A stretch of DNA of 19,170 nt from NCBI RefSeq assembly GCF_003334255.1, contig NZ_QOWU01000071.1. One strand, 5' to 3'. This document shows, piece by piece, positions 6,294-19,170 of the stretch (its first letter is position 1; each line of letters starts with the position of its first letter). The DNA is from Escherichia coli. Lineage in GTDB: Bacteria > Pseudomonadota > Gammaproteobacteria > Enterobacterales > Enterobacteriaceae. The position numbers and the translations under genes were made by a program. The notes under the pieces are model-generated. The model was given only the letters and a program-made list of their open reading frames with translations, was not told the DNA's origin and ran no database searches.

Positions 6294-6370
6294 AAGCTGT
6301 CGCTTATGGCGGGCACAGAATGCCGTGCGTTAATGCACTGCAAGGGGTTGAATCTCTGACACGGTTTCAT
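6281..6370 (-). CDS. Leader-peptide ORF (29 codons) overlapping the repA start (tap/repA6-like)
   Basis: ATG at 6370-6368; stop TGA at 6283-6281 lies 10 nt inside repA, as in IncFII translational coupling. Peptide sequence itself not recognised. Confidence 0.4.
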
Positions 6371-6456
6371 ATATACTTATCCCGTATTCTGTGAGGCCCC
6401 CACTATCTTTCTTGAGCCCGCCAAAGTTCATCGAAAGATAGTGGGGGTTTTCCTTT
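6365..6456 (+). ncRNA. CopA-like antisense RNA (5' end uncertain)
   Basis: Plus-strand hairpin with 15-bp stem CCCCCACTATCTTTC/GAAAGATAGTGGGGG (6396-6447) followed by TTTTCCTTT; antisense to the tap start/RBS region. Possible -35 TTGAAT (6348-6353) and -10 TATACT (6372-6377). Confidence 0.45.
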
Positions 6457-10982: not shown

Positions 10983-11553
10983 CCAGAATAAATCCGGGTA
11001 AAAAAGGGCGCATTGAGGTCAGCCTTCGCAACAATCCGGCGGCAGATTCCCTGCCGCCGTGTTGCCCGTTAACGTTTAACTTCGTAGGCTAACGTTGCCA
11101 CAAGCACCGTATTTCCCTGCTCGATACGAAATCCGCAAAGCGAATCCCTCACCATCCAGACAAAACACAGTATCGTCACACAGAGGACAATTAACATTGT
11201 TAAAAACGTTCGTTGTAGCATCGCAGCCCCTCCATTGCCTTTCGGCCGTTATCGGGCTACTATAATGTTGTCTAGGCATTACAGTAGAGCCCTGGGTTGA
11301 TTGATAAAAAAATCGCCTGGGGCTTCTGCTACATGCCGTCCACAAAACGCTTTCGGCATACAGCCTCAAGCGCCCGCAGCTATTCTAATCGTTTTTCAGT
11401 CTGCCACAATCGTTTTCCATCTAATGACATGTAATGCGCAACGGTATTTTTACGGGAAACAACACGGCAAGGATTCCCGGAACACGTCCATTATTTTATG
11501 GTTACGGACATCATGTTAAATCAGAAAGTAATAATGACCTGAAAGGAAATGGT

Positions 11554-11888: not shown

Positions 11889-13436
11889 TTATTTTTCTGA
11901 TTCAGCATTTCCGGTCAGTACAGGCTCTTCTGGCAAAGACATTACCGGAACGTCACGTTCGCCATTGAATACAGAAACACTTTCGGTGAAACCATTCTGT
12001 AACAAAGAAAAACTTAACGGCAGATTTTTGGTTTGTATCCCTGTGATCCATTGAAAAATCTCGGGAAAACGACGGGCGCTGATATGCACATGATTGAGGC
12101 GGTGCTCAGTAATATCACTTGCCATCATCATGAGAGGCACATCGTATCCCGAACGCAAACCTGGCGCATGATGCACAGGGGTGCTGTCTGAACTGACGGA
12201 TTGCCCATGATCAGAAAAATACAGCATGGCAAAATCATCGCCATGCTCTGTCGTCATGTTATAAATTGCCTGAAGAAACCGATCCAGCTTAAGCAATGTT
12301 GATAAATAACAGGATACTTTATTTCCGAATAATTCCCTGAACGGCTGTGCATCATTAAAAAGTCTGTCACAGGGATTAGGATGGGATCCCAGCATATGAA
12401 TGAAAATCACTTTTGGAGAAGACGAATTAACAGCTTCCCTGACATACTGAAGCATATCTTCATCATCAATGCGACGGGAAGAAGAGTTCCCTTCCTTAAG
12501 AAAATATTTCTTATCCGCACTGGCGGCGATGACAGAAATCAGCGTATCATGTCGCCCTAAAGAGCCCTGATTTGATATCCACCACGTTTCATATCCGGCT
12601 TTTCTGGCAAGCGTAACAATATTATTACCCGGATTACCTGTTTCAGTGTAATCAAGAGTCAGTGTTCTGCTGAGTGAACCTGTCGTATTCGGAGCAGCGG
12701 AGAAATACCCATTAATAAATATACCCGGAGCAGAGTTCAGCCATGGTGTTGTCGGCAAAGGATACCCATAAACAGAAAGATAATCCCGTCTGACACTTTC
12801 ACCAATTACGATAATTATAGTTTTATATTTCTTCTCCACACTCACAATATCCCATGAGTCTTTCTGATTGTTTTTCAGCGATTCATATCGCATCATTTCT
12901 TCTCTGGTTTCAGCTATCCCCGTTATTACATTCGTAACCATACGTTTTGGCCATGCATTTACTGACAATACGATAAAGAACAACAGAAAGATAAATCCCC
13001 GGTGGCTTTTTTCACGCTTACGCCAGAACCAGAATGTAAAAGCAGCAATGACCAGTGAAACAATAAAATAAAAAACAGGTATGCCTGTGATAAATTCACC
13101 TGCCTCATTTATATTTGTCTGCATTACAGACGCAATAAAACTGTTGTTTATTTTTCCGTAAATCATTCCAACCGGAGCATAGAATGCACTTAACAAAAGA
13201 AAGATACAGACACACGTCGCTGAAATAACATTCCGCCGCCCCAACGACATCATCAGGAACAATATAAGTACATTCCCTGTGGCGTTTTTCACTGTATATC
13301 CGCAGCACCATGTAACAAGTACAGAAAACAACAGATAAATCAGTGACTCTTTACACCACAACATAAAATAAAACTGTTTTGCCATCTCAAAAGCACATTT
13401 GGATTTTTCTTTAATACGAGACACGCCAGTCATTTT
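11889..13436 (-). CDS. Phosphoethanolamine-transferase-like membrane enzyme (sulfatase/alkaline-phosphatase superfamily, EptA/MCR/OpgE-like); start uncertain
   Basis: N-terminal hydrophobic helices followed by a catalytic domain with IIIVIGESVRRDYLSVYGYP, KVIFIHMLGSHPNP and AMLYFSDHGQS, resembling the VVGETARADHVSFNGY / MLHQMGNHGP / MLYVSDHGES blocks of MCR/EptA. AT-rich. ORF open to 13445 (TTG); first ATG at 13436. Confidence 0.75.
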   Translation of the reverse strand, partial: KMTGVSRIKEKSKCAFEMAKQFYFMLWCKESLIYLLFSVLVTWCCGYTVKNATGNVLILFLMMSLGRRNVISATCVCIFLLLSAFYAPVGMIYGKINNSFIASVMQTNINEAGEFITGIPVFYFIVSLVIAAFTFWFWRKREKSHRGFIFLLFFIVLSVNAWPKRMVTNVITGIAETREEMMRYESLKNNQKDSWDIVSVEKKYKTIIIVIGESVRRDYLSVYGYPLPTTPWLNSAPGIFINGYFSAAPNTTGSLSRTLTLDYTETGNPGNNIVTLARKAGYETWWISNQGSLGRHDTLISVIAASADKKYFLKEGNSSSRRIDDEDMLQYVREAVNSSSPKVIFIHMLGSHPNPCDRLFNDAQPFRELFGNKVSCYLSTLLKLDRFLQAIYNMTTEHGDDFAMLYFSDHGQSVSSDSTPVHHAPGLRSGYDVPLMMMASDITEHRLNHVHISARRFPEIFQWITGIQTKNLPLSFSLLQNGFTESVSVFNGERDVPVMSLPEEPVLTGNAESEK

Positions 13437-17028: not shown

Positions 17029-17176
17029 GGGTGAGAAACCCCTTGTATGGGAAAAACTTGCCATGCTCACTGCAGGTGCATTTTTGATACTGGCAATCCT
17101 GGGTGAGTAATCTTAATATCCTGTTTATTAAAGGGCAGAAGGCGGTGCCCCTCTGCCCTTAAGTACGTTTCCGGGA

Positions 17177-17287
17177 TTATCTGTCAACCAGTTCCCGGAT
17201 CAGCTCCAGGATAGCTATCACTGCATTGGCCACAGCAACAACAGCCCTGAGAACGATGATTAACAGGTTAATCATCCGCTTCTCCAT
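17177..17287 (-). CDS. Type I toxin-like small hydrophobic peptide, copy A (36 aa; 32 aa if started at second ATG)
   Basis: MEKRMINLLIIVLRAVVAVANAVIAILELIRELVDR; GGAG lies 7 nt upstream of the second ATG (17275). Copy B differs almost only at synonymous sites. Confidence 0.6.
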   Translation of the reverse strand: MEKRMINLLIIVLRAVVAVANAVIAILELIRELVDR

Positions 17288-17534
17288 CAATGGAGAAAGA
17301 ACGCCGTGGTTTGCCCTTACATTGCCTGTCGCCACGTTTTCTATAGTGTCAGTTATAGACAGTTCTTCTCCGGCCAGAGCACCAAAACCAGCACCACCTG
17401 ATGTTTTGGCCAGGACTTGCAATCTGTTCATCCCTGGAACGATATGCCGGAAAGAACGTACCTCAAGGCTGACACACCGAGTATATACTTATACGATGCT
17501 TGCAGAAATATTATTTCAGCCGTATTATTTCATA

Positions 17535-17621
17535 GTCAGTTATAGACAGTTATCTTCCGGTCAGGGCTACCAAGTTCGATCCGGAATCGTAAAAAAACCG
17601 GCCTCACCAGTCGGTTTTTTT
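17535..17621 (+). ncRNA. Candidate antitoxin small RNA, copy A
   Basis: Sigma70-like promoter TTGCAG-17 nt-TATTAT (17500-17528); intrinsic terminator ACCGGC-CTCACCA-GTCGGT plus seven T (17597-17621). 5' region 17535-17551 is a direct repeat of 17348-17364, hence complementary to the peptide mRNA leader. Confidence 0.4.
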
Positions 17622-17878
17622 ACATCTGTATATATCTGCTCCGGACTGCGCCCTGAGTCTCCCGTTGAAAATTGCCTTTTGAATTTTACGAAATACGGCA
17701 AATGGTGGATGGATGTCGAATATATTTCCAGGGGAGTTCCGGGGAAAAGCCGGCTCATGTTTGACTCACGGGAACAGACGCTGGAAGTGCAGAAAGATTT
17801 TCGATTTTTAACCTGAGCATATTTTGTTAAAGGGCAGAAGACGGTGACCCTCTGCCCTTAAGTACGTTTCCGGGATTA

Positions 17879-17986
17879 TCAGTCAACCAGTTCCCGGATC
17901 AGTTCCAGGAGAGCTATCACTGCGTTAGCCACAGCAACAACCGCCCTGAGAACGATGATTAACAGGTTAATCATCCGTTTCTCCAT
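17879..17986 (-). CDS. Type I toxin-like small hydrophobic peptide, copy B (35 aa)
   Basis: MEKRMINLLIIVLRAVVAVANAVIALLELIRELVD; versus copy A five synonymous changes, one I-to-L change and loss of the terminal Arg. Confidence 0.55.
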   Translation of the reverse strand: MEKRMINLLIIVLRAVVAVANAVIALLELIRELVD

Positions 17987-18279
17987 CAATGGAGGAAATC
18001 ACTGTTGTTTACTCTTACATTGCCTGTCACAACAGCTCTTTCATTGTTAGCTGAAAAGAGACTTCCTCCGGCCAGAGCACCAGACGCAGCACCACCTGTT
18101 TGTCTGGCCAGGTCTTTGAATAGCACAGATCCATAGTCCCGATGGATTGATGCGAAGGTAAGTCTCCAGACAAGGCTAACTTGCTGATTATACTTGTTTC
18201 AGGCGATATCGCTACTCCCGGAACAATAGACTGTAACGAACAGATTGCGATCAGGTGAATATAACGATATTCTGGTAAC

Positions 18280-18366
18280 GTTAGTTGAAAAGAGACTTCC
18301 TCCGGGCCAGAGCCACCAACTCTCCCTGGGATCGCAAAAAAGCCGGCCTCACCAGTCGGCTTTTTT
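18280..18366 (+). ncRNA. Candidate antitoxin small RNA, copy B
   Basis: Promoter-like TTGCGA-17 nt-TATTCT (18245-18273); terminator GCCGGC-CTCACCA-GTCGGC plus T-run (18341-18366). 18286-18305 is a direct repeat of 18052-18071 in the copy-B peptide leader. Confidence 0.35.
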
Positions 18367-18579
18367 GTGCCTGTCTCTCACCACCTTCTGCTGTTCCTGT
18401 GAAAATGCCCTGCTGAATTCATCCCTGCCCGGTCATTACCGGCGATTGTTCGTATTCATTCCACTCAGCCTCATCACGAAATTAATCCATTTATCTATGG
18501 AGGAATCCCCGTGTCTTACCAACAGACGTCTGCCAGTGAAGCACCAACAGAGATTTGGTATATCGTCGGTATCATATGC

Positions 18580-19170
<591 letters not shown>

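What the first reader, a model, noticed from the sequence alone, without database searches (positions are those of the whole stretch)
17177..17986. The 36-codon ORF is conserved at the protein level between the two copies while the region upstream of it is not
Aligning the two ORFs codon by codon gives five synonymous third-position changes (AAG/AAA, GCT/GCG, GCC/GCT, AAT/AAC, GAG/GAA), one conservative I-to-L change and one change at the final codon (AGA to TGA). Immediately upstream of the ATG the copies diverge and copy B carries a 1-nt deletion that destroys the longer 84-codon frame. This is the pattern of purifying selection on the short peptide only.
Basis: seen in the sequence. Interest (0 to 1): 0.6.

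Follow-up and report, generated by a model that had tools for sequence, protein, structure and literature searches.

The report
Tandem dqlB/agrB plasmid toxin-antitoxin units
The conserved short ORF is the already-annotated plasmid killer peptide DqlB, present twice in tandem, and the "unconserved" DNA upstream is its regulatory leader, which co-evolves with a neighbouring antisense RNA antidote.

Summary
The sequence observation is correct. The two minus-strand ORFs differ by five synonymous changes, one I/L change and AGA/TGA at the last codon, and copy B has a 1-nt length difference just upstream. The ORFs are known genes: RefSeq annotates both as "DinQ-like type I toxin DqlB" (NCBIfam NF041473, 65 and 63 bits, cutoff 35). 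Each has an AgrB-like antisense RNA on the plus strand (Rfam RF02891). The window comes from an IncI-type E. coli plasmid. Homologs were shown in 2025 to be plasmid addiction modules.

- Purifying selection on the peptide is real: dN/dS is about 0.08 across 13 distinct homologs.
- The gene has 31 codons, not 36.
- The upstream region is a structured 5' UTR, not unconstrained DNA. 95% of cells pair, 60 cells carry compensatory changes, and 0 of 500 shuffles match this.
- The variable segment of the UTR matches the 5' end of the cognate agrB in every homolog.
- The sharp identity boundary is a recombination boundary. The CDS and 3' UTR group by plasmid lineage, while the UTR and agrB seed group by "type".

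The two units are predicted not to cross-react. Overall this is a known system of low novelty, with a modest new angle on its modular specificity.

The parts
17177..17275 (-). dqlB copy A coding sequence: 32 codons plus TAA (MINLLIIVLRAVVAVANAVIAILELIRELVDR). The usual first stop TGA is mutated to AGA, so translation runs one codon further to the second stop.
   Evidence: PGAP annotation WP_001681653.1 in NZ_CP060062.1. NF041473 65.4 bits, cutoff 35. 17 of the other 18 copies stop after codon 31.
17879..17974 (-). dqlB copy B coding sequence: 31 codons plus TGA (followed by TAA).
   Evidence: PGAP WP_001363141.1. NF041473 63.0 bits.
17281..17296 (-). SD-sequestering hairpin of copy A (UCUCCAU-UG-AUGGAGA). 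SD GGAG is at 17282-17285.
   Evidence: Single-sequence folds show the SD paired in all 15 distinct UTRs. The arms covary: CUCCAU/AUGGAG, UCCCUU/AAGGGA, CUCCAG/CUGGAG.
17980..17995 (-). SD-sequestering hairpin of copy B (SD GGAG at 17981-17984).
17255..17276 (-). 9-bp hairpin covering the start codon of copy A (GAUGAUUAAC...GUUAAUCAUC, codons 1-7).
   Evidence: Inverted repeat I1. Folds at -8.3 kcal/mol, is conserved in all homologs, and K-12 dinQ has an equivalent stem of different sequence.
17954..17975 (-). Start-codon hairpin of copy B.
17349..17382 (-). agrB target (contains 'element 2') in the copy A 5' UTR, ending 73 nt upstream of the ATG.
   Evidence: 27 WC + 3 GU of 34 positions with agrB-A. 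Repeat family D3.
18047..18080 (-). agrB target in the copy B 5' UTR, ending 72 nt upstream of the ATG.
   Evidence: 25-nt uninterrupted helix with agrB-B, -59.3 kcal/mol. Repeat D7.
17290..17305 (-). Element 3 plus anti-SD of copy A. It pairs either with the SD (closed state) or with element 2 (open state).
   Evidence: Helix 4, alignment columns 131-140 with 204-213: 5 of 9 pairs have double-sided changes. Three pairs are compensatory between copies A and B themselves.
17446..17459 (-). Element 1 of copy A (GUUCUUUCCGGC region), which pairs with element 2 in the full-length mRNA (the lock).
   Evidence: MFE fold of the full-length mRNA. By analogy with dinQ U16-C28.
18152..18167 (-). Element 1 of copy B (GGAGACUUACCUUCGC).
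17124..17473 (-). Predicted dqlB-A mRNA (about 350 nt). +1 was placed by homology to K-12 dinQ +1 (GTCAGCC vs GTTAGC), with a -10 TATACT at 17480-17485. The 3' hairpin is at 17131-17160.
   Evidence: The TSS is inferred and was not found by the consensus scan.
17823..18180 (-). Predicted dqlB-B mRNA. -10 TATAAT is at 18187-18192 and the 3' hairpin at 17830-17859.
   Evidence: TSS inferred.
17536..17623 (+). agrB-A antisense antitoxin RNA: a single-stranded 5' seed of about 20 nt, an internal hairpin and a terminator. The promoter, read by eye, is TTGCAG (17500-17505), 17-nt spacer, TATTAT (17523-17528).
   Evidence: Rfam RF02891 43.5 bits, gathering score 40, full-length model match. Fold.
18281..18368 (+). 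agrB-B antisense antitoxin RNA. The promoter, read by eye, is TTGCGA (18245-18250), 17-nt spacer, TATTCT (18268-18273).
   Evidence: Rfam RF02891 41.0 bits. Fold.

Best explanation
The region holds two tandem type I toxin-antitoxin units of the dqlB/agrB (DinQ-like) family on an IncI-type conjugative plasmid.

Each unit has two parts:
- A minus-strand mRNA of about 350 nt. It has a 5' UTR of about 195 nt and encodes a 31-aa hydrophobic membrane peptide, DqlB (32 aa in copy A).
- A divergently transcribed plus-strand RNA of about 88 nt, agrB. Its first 20-34 nt are complementary to the UTR about 72 nt upstream of the start codon.

The proposed mechanism is transferred from dinQ. In the full-length mRNA, a 5' element pairs with the agrB-target element, and the Shine-Dalgarno sequence is locked in a hairpin. 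After 5' processing, the target element pairs with the anti-SD strand and frees the SD. agrB binding to the target element re-closes the SD hairpin and creates an RNase III substrate. If the plasmid is lost, agrB (assumed to be labile) is no longer made, and the toxin is translated and kills the cell.

1. Strong purifying selection on the peptide.
2. Selection on RNA structure and on sense/antisense complementarity in the UTR. The sequence drifts, but by compensatory change.
3. A mosaic history. The central block (agrB seed, promoters, 5' UTR) comes in old, distinct 'types'. The CDS/3' UTR and the agrB body are homogenised within a plasmid lineage.

Shown here: family membership, the selection signal, the structure covariation, the cognate complementarity and the mosaicism. 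Inferred: toxicity, 5' processing, RNase III cleavage, relative RNA stabilities and transcription start sites.
For: Identity of the elements:
- RefSeq annotates dqlB twice at exactly these coordinates.
- NF041473 scores 65.4 and 63.0 bits, against a cutoff of 35.
- Rfam AgrB scores 43.5 and 41.0 bits, against a gathering score of 40, with full-length model matches.
- The plasmid context includes PK-repZ, sok and excA.

Selection on the peptide:
- dN/dS is 0.08 across 13 distinct ORFs.
- Variable columns by codon position are 10/3/22 of 31, and 21 of 31 residues are invariant.

Start site:
- SD GGAG lies at -10..-7 from the second ATG.
- The first ATG is lost or out of frame in 8 of 18 copies.

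UTR structure:
- 95.3% of cells pair, against 37-52% when partners are slid.
- 60 cells have double-sided changes, against 5-18 when slid; 0 of 500 shuffles reach any measure.
- The 2:3 duplex was recovered by RNAalifold without being specified.
- The MFE folds of both full-length mRNAs show the 1:2 lock and a closed SD.

Antisense pairing:
- The agrB seed pairs at 18-20 of 20 positions with its own UTR in 13 of 13 loci, against a mean of 15.0 over all other combinations.

Mosaicism:
- 25 of 25 informative sites in the CDS, 3' UTR and agrB body group by plasmid lineage.
- 46 of 49 sites in the central block group by seed type.

Published experiments:
- dqlB from pOXA-48 and pOXA-484 is toxic, is neutralised by agrB and stabilises plasmids (PMC12365149, PMC12317039).
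- Peptides from the same Inc groups are 81% identical to ours over 31 aa (L016/L018 for IncL/M, L006 for IncX3).
- The dinQ mechanism is described in PMC5066626.
Against: - No experiment exists for these two copies.
- The Rfam scores are only just above the gathering threshold.
- The consensus promoter scan did not find the inferred promoters.
- In silico 5' truncation opens the SD in copy B but not in copy A.
- Copy A has a lost first stop codon and a weaker cognate duplex (-48.7 against -59.3 kcal/mol), so it might be partly degenerate.
- The free-energy matrix for 2:3 pairing did not separate cognate from non-cognate partners.
Confidence: 0.9

Rival explanations
1. One reading: a 36-aa peptide is the only selected element, and the upstream sequence, including the broken 84-codon frame, is decaying neutrally.
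For: Between the two copies, dN/dS is 0.064 over 35 codons. The long frame is open in only some homologs.
Against: The first four codons are not conserved as coding sequence: the ATG is lost or out of frame in 8 of 18 copies. The upstream region has 44 invariant columns shared with dinQ, strong compensatory covariation and a cognate antisense partner.
Confidence: 0.04
2. The ORF similarity between copies A and B reflects recent gene conversion or duplication alone. The ORF need not be translated, and its conservation could be RNA-level only.
For: The quartet test shows the CDS and 3' UTR are homogenised within a plasmid lineage. L019 copies a and b share a 138-nt identical run. The first seven codons form an RNA hairpin. 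The 3' UTR is as similar between the copies as the ORF.
Against: Across lineages where dS is saturated (about 1), dN stays at 0.078. Third positions vary in 22 of 31 codons and second positions in 3 of 31. RNA structure alone would not produce that codon periodicity. Homologous peptides are toxic in experiments.
Confidence: 0.04
3. The long upstream frame (84 codons in copy A) is a mok-like leader whose translation is coupled to toxin translation, as in hok/mok/sok.
For: In copy A the frames are fused. The upstream frames of the two copies share some residues (GGA..GALAG..TGNVR).
Against: The in-frame extension is open for more than 40 codons in only 6 of 18 copies (winA, L003, L004, L015, L017, L019a), and the position of an upstream start varies. 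The shared residues coincide with invariant RNA blocks and helices. The dinQ model needs no leader peptide.
Confidence: 0.02

Closest known systems
dqlB/agrB of plasmids pOXA-48 (IncL) and pOXA-484 (IncX3), validated in 2025 (PMC12365149, PMC12317039)
   Same: Same NCBIfam family. Peptides from the same Inc groups (L016/L018 for IncL/M, L006 for IncX3) are 81% identical to ours over 31 aa. The architecture is the same: a divergent antisense RNA whose 5' end pairs with the UTR about 70 nt upstream of the ATG, and the same terminator motif CCGRYCTCACCAGTCGG. The role is plasmid addiction.
   Different: Here there are two tandem units with different seed/target sequences. The IncL/M and IncN agrB is shorter and falls below Rfam detection. 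Copy A carries a one-residue C-terminal extension.
Chromosomal dinQ/agrA/agrB of E. coli K-12 (Weel-Sneve 2013; Kristiansen 2016, PMC5066626)
   Same: Homologous UTR blocks, SD hairpin, start-codon hairpin, four-element switch, agrB promoter layout (TTGCAA-17-TAGTAT-7 against TTGCAG-17-TATTAT-7, read by eye) and a 3' hairpin. K-12 also has a second agr RNA (agrA) whose seed does not match the toxin mRNA.
   Different: The DinQ model scores below its cutoff (18-21 bits against 30). There is no LexA box at the promoters. The location is a plasmid, not arsR-gor. Each agrB here has its own toxin gene.
zorO-orzO / zorP-orzP tandem type I loci of E. coli O157:H7 (from memory: Fozo 2010; Wen, Won and Fozo 2014)
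   Same: Tandem duplicated type I units with divergent, non-overlapping antisense RNAs that pair in the 5' UTR. As I recall, the antitoxins were reported not to be interchangeable because of differences in the pairing region.
   Different: The peptide family is unrelated. The Rfam OrzO-P model gives only sub-threshold hits on the agrB terminators (30-35 bits against 60).
tisB/istR-1 and hok/sok
   Same: An inert full-length mRNA, activation by processing, and antisense control at a distance from the SD (discussed in PMC5066626). A hok/sok unit sits in the same window at about 11219-11375.
   Different: tisB uses a ribosome standby site. hok needs the mok leader and 3' processing. No conserved leader ORF is found here.

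Membership tests
DqlB (NCBIfam NF041473, dql family of Kristiansen 2016) | Peptide matches the curated equivalog model above its cutoff | tested here: met
   65.4 and 63.0 bits against a cutoff of 35; profile positions 1-31 of 31 are matched.
DqlB (NCBIfam NF041473, dql family of Kristiansen 2016) | Short hydrophobic single-helix peptide of about 31 aa with an SD correctly placed before its start | tested here: met
   GRAVY 1.7-1.9; the best 19-aa window scores 2.7. GGAG lies at -10..-7. The helix itself was not modelled here.
DqlB (NCBIfam NF041473, dql family of Kristiansen 2016) | dinQ-like 5' UTR with an SD hairpin and mutually exclusive elements 1-4 | tested here: met
   44 invariant columns are shared with dinQ. 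Covariation: 95.3% of cells paired, 0 of 500 shuffles reach the observed values. The 1:2 lock and closed SD appear in the MFE folds. The open state after truncation was reproduced for copy B only.
DqlB (NCBIfam NF041473, dql family of Kristiansen 2016) | Neighbouring divergent agrB-type antisense RNA complementary to the UTR | tested here: met
   RF02891 scores 43.5 and 41.0 bits against a gathering score of 40. Pairing over 34 nt is 27 WC + 3 GU for copy A and 26 WC + 2 GU for copy B.
DqlB (NCBIfam NF041473, dql family of Kristiansen 2016) | Toxic on expression, neutralised by agrB, stabilises the plasmid | not testable with these tools
   Shown only for the pOXA-48 and pOXA-484 homologs.
DinQ proper (NF041472, SOS-regulated chromosomal toxin) | Peptide above the DinQ model cutoff | tested here: not met
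   18.4 and 21.5 bits against a cutoff of 30.
DinQ proper (NF041472, SOS-regulated chromosomal toxin) | LexA box overlapping the promoter | tested here: not met
   K-12 has CTGGATAATCATACAG at +1 (12 of 16 matches). In the window, the only CTG-N10-CAG matches are inside the UTR stem (17398-17413 with 8 of 16; 18096-18111 with 10 of 16).
Hok/Mok/Sok-type coupling | Conserved overlapping leader ORF required for toxin translation | tested here: not met
   The upstream in-frame ORF is long in only 6 of 18 copies and its start position is not conserved.
Zor/Orz | Antitoxin RNA matches the Rfam OrzO-P model | tested here: not met
   Only sub-threshold partial hits on the terminator half of homolog agrBs, 30-35 bits against a gathering score of 60. 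Nothing in the window reached the gathering score.

The most novel reading that the evidence does not exclude
The two tandem units are mutually orthogonal addiction modules. Specificity would reside in a central cassette of about 260 bp (agrB seed, divergent promoters, UTR elements 1-3). This cassette exists in several old 'types' that recombine independently of the toxin CDS. The common derivatives that have deleted the second toxin but kept its agrB would then act as immunity (anti-addiction) against plasmids carrying that toxin type. I did not find this modular specificity and orphan-antitoxin picture in the papers I read.
Probability: 0.3. Interest if true: 0.5.

Novelty: already known. 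Interest (0 to 1): 0.22.

Why it matters
The finding itself re-discovers an annotated gene, so its main value is as a check. Reading the sequence alone did pick out a real small toxin gene by its substitution pattern.

The follow-up adds some practical points:
- dqlB should be read as 31 codons.
- The apparent "junk" upstream is the regulatory core of the system.
- Comparing only two tandem copies can mistake a conversion boundary for a selection boundary.

If the predicted orthogonality of the two units and the function of the toxin-less agrB copies were confirmed, they would bear on how IncI/IncK resistance plasmids stack addiction systems. They would also bear on how these plasmids compete with one another.

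Tried and rejected
- **Full-length RNAduplex of UTR against agrB.** Energies were inflated by long bulged duplexes, and shuffled controls reached -63 kcal/mol. I replaced it with in-register counts over 20 and 34 nt.
- **Free-energy matrix for element 2:3 pairing.** The cognate partner ranked between 1 and 10 of 14, so it did not discriminate. I rely on column-wise covariation instead.
- **MAFFT alignment of the 40-nt SD region.** The 3' arm fell out of register for sequences with 13-nt spacing, so I made no pair count on it and used single-sequence folds.
- **Consensus promoter/terminator scan.** It found none of the inferred promoters. It reported the agrB terminators on the wrong strand only, because these hairpins are flanked by an A-run on one side and a T-run on the other. 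Promoters are therefore given as inferred.
- **A first identity-matrix script.** It timed out.
- **LexA regulation.** I considered it and found no support at the promoters. The weak box that PMC12211044 predicts for an IncI1 dqlB corresponds to the CCTGG...CAGG stem inside the UTR.
- **A mok-like leader ORF.** I considered and rejected it.
- **Further copies in the window.** None were found.
- **agrB in the IncX1 locus L012.** Neither Rfam nor a complementarity search found one.

Full report
**What is at the coordinates**

The window carries two direct repeats with a period of about 699 bp. One pair is 17124-17298 and 17823-17997 (94% identical). The other is 17306-17423 and 18004-18121 (72% identical). 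There are also shorter repeats that recur inside each unit.

On the minus strand each unit holds a small hydrophobic ORF.
- five synonymous differences;
- ATC/CTC (I/L);
- AGA/TGA at codon 36;
- a net 1-nt length difference a few bases upstream, which closes the long frame in copy B.

In the other two reading frames the same differences are mostly non-synonymous.

**What it is**

The 1.3-kb region is 100% identical to several E. coli plasmids. RefSeq annotates both ORFs there as "DinQ-like type I toxin DqlB".
- The peptides score 65.4 and 63.0 bits on NCBIfam NF041473 (cutoff 35). They fall below the cutoff of the DinQ model itself.
- Rfam's AgrB model (RF02891) matches the plus strand at 17536-17623 and 18281-18368 with full-length matches, at 43.5 and 41.0 bits against a gathering score of 40.
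- The rest of the window (PK-repZ, sok, excA, a Hok/Gef gene) identifies an IncI-type conjugative plasmid.

The family is described in the literature:
- Kristiansen et al. 2016 named it (PMC5066626).
- In 2025, dqlB/agrB on pOXA-48 and pOXA-484 was shown to be toxic, to be neutralised by agrB, and to act as an addiction module. The pOXA-48 paper reports dqlB on 67% of IncI1 plasmids (PMC12365149, PMC12317039).

**The gene is 31 codons, not 36**

I fetched 17 homologous loci spanning IncI1, IncK, IncB/O, IncX1, IncX3, IncI2, IncN, IncL/M and IncF plasmids, plus K-12 dinQ. All 18 dqlB copies keep an intact frame starting MIN(L/V/M)LI.

- it is AAG in L008;
- it is CTG in L009, L012 and L013;
- it lies 13 nt upstream, out of frame, in L006 and L015-L018.

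What is conserved there is a hairpin whose arms change together: CUCCAU/AUGGAG, UCCCUU/AAGGGA, CUCCAG/CUGGAG. It encloses the SD GGAG 6 nt before the true start codon, and the SD is paired in all 15 distinct sequences, including dinQ.

Copy A is 32 aa only because its first stop, TGA, has become AGA. Translation therefore runs on to the second stop. All the other copies end in a stop after codon 31, and in most a second stop follows directly.

**Selection on the peptide is real**

Across 13 distinct ORFs, mean dS is 0.98, mean dN is 0.078 and the ratio is 0.08. Variable columns by codon position are 10/3/22 of 31, and 21 of 31 residues are invariant.

Part of the nucleotide conservation in codons 1-7 is also structural. 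These codons form a 9-bp hairpin over the start codon. It is kept in all homologs and has an equivalent stem of different sequence in dinQ.

**The upstream region is constrained, in a different way**

An alignment of 15 distinct 5' UTRs has 44 invariant and 16 nearly invariant columns, in blocks shared with chromosomal dinQ.

RNAalifold predicts three main helices:
- stem-loop SL2;
- a duplex between the segment after GGAG in the agrB target (element 2) and the segment just upstream of the anti-SD (element 3);
- a further helix.

On that structure:
- 95.3% of cells pair, against 37-52% when partners are slid;
- 60 cells carry double-sided changes, against 5-18 when slid;
- none of 500 shuffles reaches any of the five measures.

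Three of these compensatory pair changes occur between copies A and B themselves (A-U to G-C, G-C to A-U, A-U to U-A), read.

The MFE folds of both full-length mRNAs show a 5' element paired to the agrB-target element, with the SD closed. That matches the published dinQ "lock". Removing the 5' end opens the SD in copy B but not in copy A (model).

**Sense/antisense co-evolution**

In all 13 loci where Rfam finds agrB, its first 20 nt pair at 18-20 positions with a site 72-78 nt upstream of the neighbouring dqlB start. The mean over all other combinations is 15.0. The seed differs between lineages, and I count at least eight versions.

The window carries two of them:
- type A, with target ...ACTGTCTATAACTGA;
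- type B, with target ...GTCTCTTTTCAGCTAA.

K-12 provides a calibration. There, agrA does not repress dinQ in published experiments.

| mRNA x antisense RNA | WC / G·U / mismatch (of 34) | Duplex energy (kcal/mol) |
|---|---|---|
| K-12 dinQ x agrB | 31 / 0 / 3 | -57.8 |
| K-12 dinQ x agrA (non-repressing) | 25 / 4 / 5 | -42.3 |
| dqlB-A x agrB-A | 27 / 3 / 4 | -48.7 |
| dqlB-B x agrB-B | 26 / 2 / 6 | -59.3 |
| dqlB-A x agrB-B | 18 / 4 / 12 | -33.3 |
| dqlB-B x agrB-A | 20 / 6 / 8 | -32.4 |

The cross-pairs are weaker than the non-functional agrA pair, so I predict that the two units do not cross-react. That is an inference.

The IncN and IncL/M loci, which Rfam misses, have a shorter agrB with the same layout and terminator.

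**Why the identity changes so sharply just upstream of the ORF**

Segment identities and a quartet test on winA, winB, L004 (type A) and L005 (type B) agree:
- All 25 informative sites in the CDS, 3' UTR and agrB body group the sequences by plasmid lineage.
- 46 of 49 sites in the central block (agrB seed, promoters, 5' UTR) group them by type.
- Only one site in the whole unit supports the third topology.
- In the common IncI1 variant L019, the two copies share a 138-nt identical run that starts at CGGATG.

The boundary is therefore a recombination or gene-conversion boundary that coincides with the functional boundary at the SD hairpin. Purifying selection alone does not explain the contrast. 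The two differences in the 3' hairpin are structure-neutral: one is in the loop, and the other changes G-C to G·U.

**Comparison with dinQ**

The architecture and the UTR are homologous to dinQ, but this is not dinQ:
- the peptide is below the DinQ model cutoff;
- it is plasmid-borne;
- neither promoter has a LexA box, whereas K-12 has one overlapping +1.

The only CTG-N10-CAG matches lie in the SL2 stem inside the UTR. That is probably what a 2025 paper scored as a weak LexA site on an IncI1 plasmid.

**Verdict**

The element is an already known and annotated type I toxin-antitoxin family, present here as two tandem units. The incremental points are the seed types, the modular recombination, the predicted orthogonality and the common antitoxin-only derivatives. 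I did not find these in the papers I read. They remain computational.

Noticed in passing
L003 1780-2138 (CP052260.1, IncK2/Z), compared with window 17706-18141: L003 equals the window's tandem locus with a clean 436-bp deletion. The deletion removes the copy-B toxin CDS, SD hairpin and agrB target, but keeps agrB-B and the first ~40 nt of the dqlB-B mRNA. In PLSDB, many plasmids match only the part of cassette B that survives this deletion (query 145-303 at 99-100%). Only 154 of the 403 matching plasmids carry 80% or more of the cassette. The antitoxin-only form therefore seems common.
   Followed up: partly
L008 1855-1942 (NZ_CP123198.1, IncI1/B/O): This locus has its own dqlB with a third seed type and a cognate agrB. 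It also has an extra type-B agrB (20 of 20 seed pairing with type-B targets) and no type-B toxin nearby. This resembles agrA next to agrB in K-12.
   Followed up: partly
window 17177-17179 / 17180-17182: Copy A has lost the family's first stop codon (TGA to AGA) and ends at the back-up stop, giving a 32-aa DqlB with a C-terminal Arg. This is unique among the 18 copies compared. Only about five public records match this region at 100% identity.
   Followed up: partly
window 11889-13424 (-): A 511-aa plasmid-borne phosphoethanolamine transferase. It scores far below every NCBIfam EptA/CptA cutoff (best 101 bits against a cutoff of 404). No MCR-named model appears among the hits at E <= 1e-10. 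It may be a divergent lipid A-modifying enzyme.
   Followed up: partly
window 11219-11375 (-) and neighbouring genes: The same window holds a second type I system, hok/sok (Rfam sok, 116 bits). According to the RefSeq record it also holds a GNAT/DUF1778 pair that looks like a type II toxin-antitoxin. That would make four addiction-type modules within about 7 kb.
   Followed up: no
window 6306-6455 (-): The regulatory pseudoknot of the repZ replication gene (Rfam PK-repZ, 162.5 bits, full length). It marks the IncI-complex replicon.
   Followed up: no
window 18027-18173 (-): RefSeq annotates a 48-aa 'hypothetical protein' (WP_001346191.1) inside the copy-B 5' UTR, in a different frame from the toxin. 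It overlaps the conserved RNA helices and the agrB target, so it is probably a spurious call.
   Followed up: no
window 18623-19170 (-): An IS3-family transposase gene begins about 250 bp beyond agrB-B and runs off the end of the window. In related IncI1 plasmids (L019), trbA lies at that position instead.
   Followed up: no
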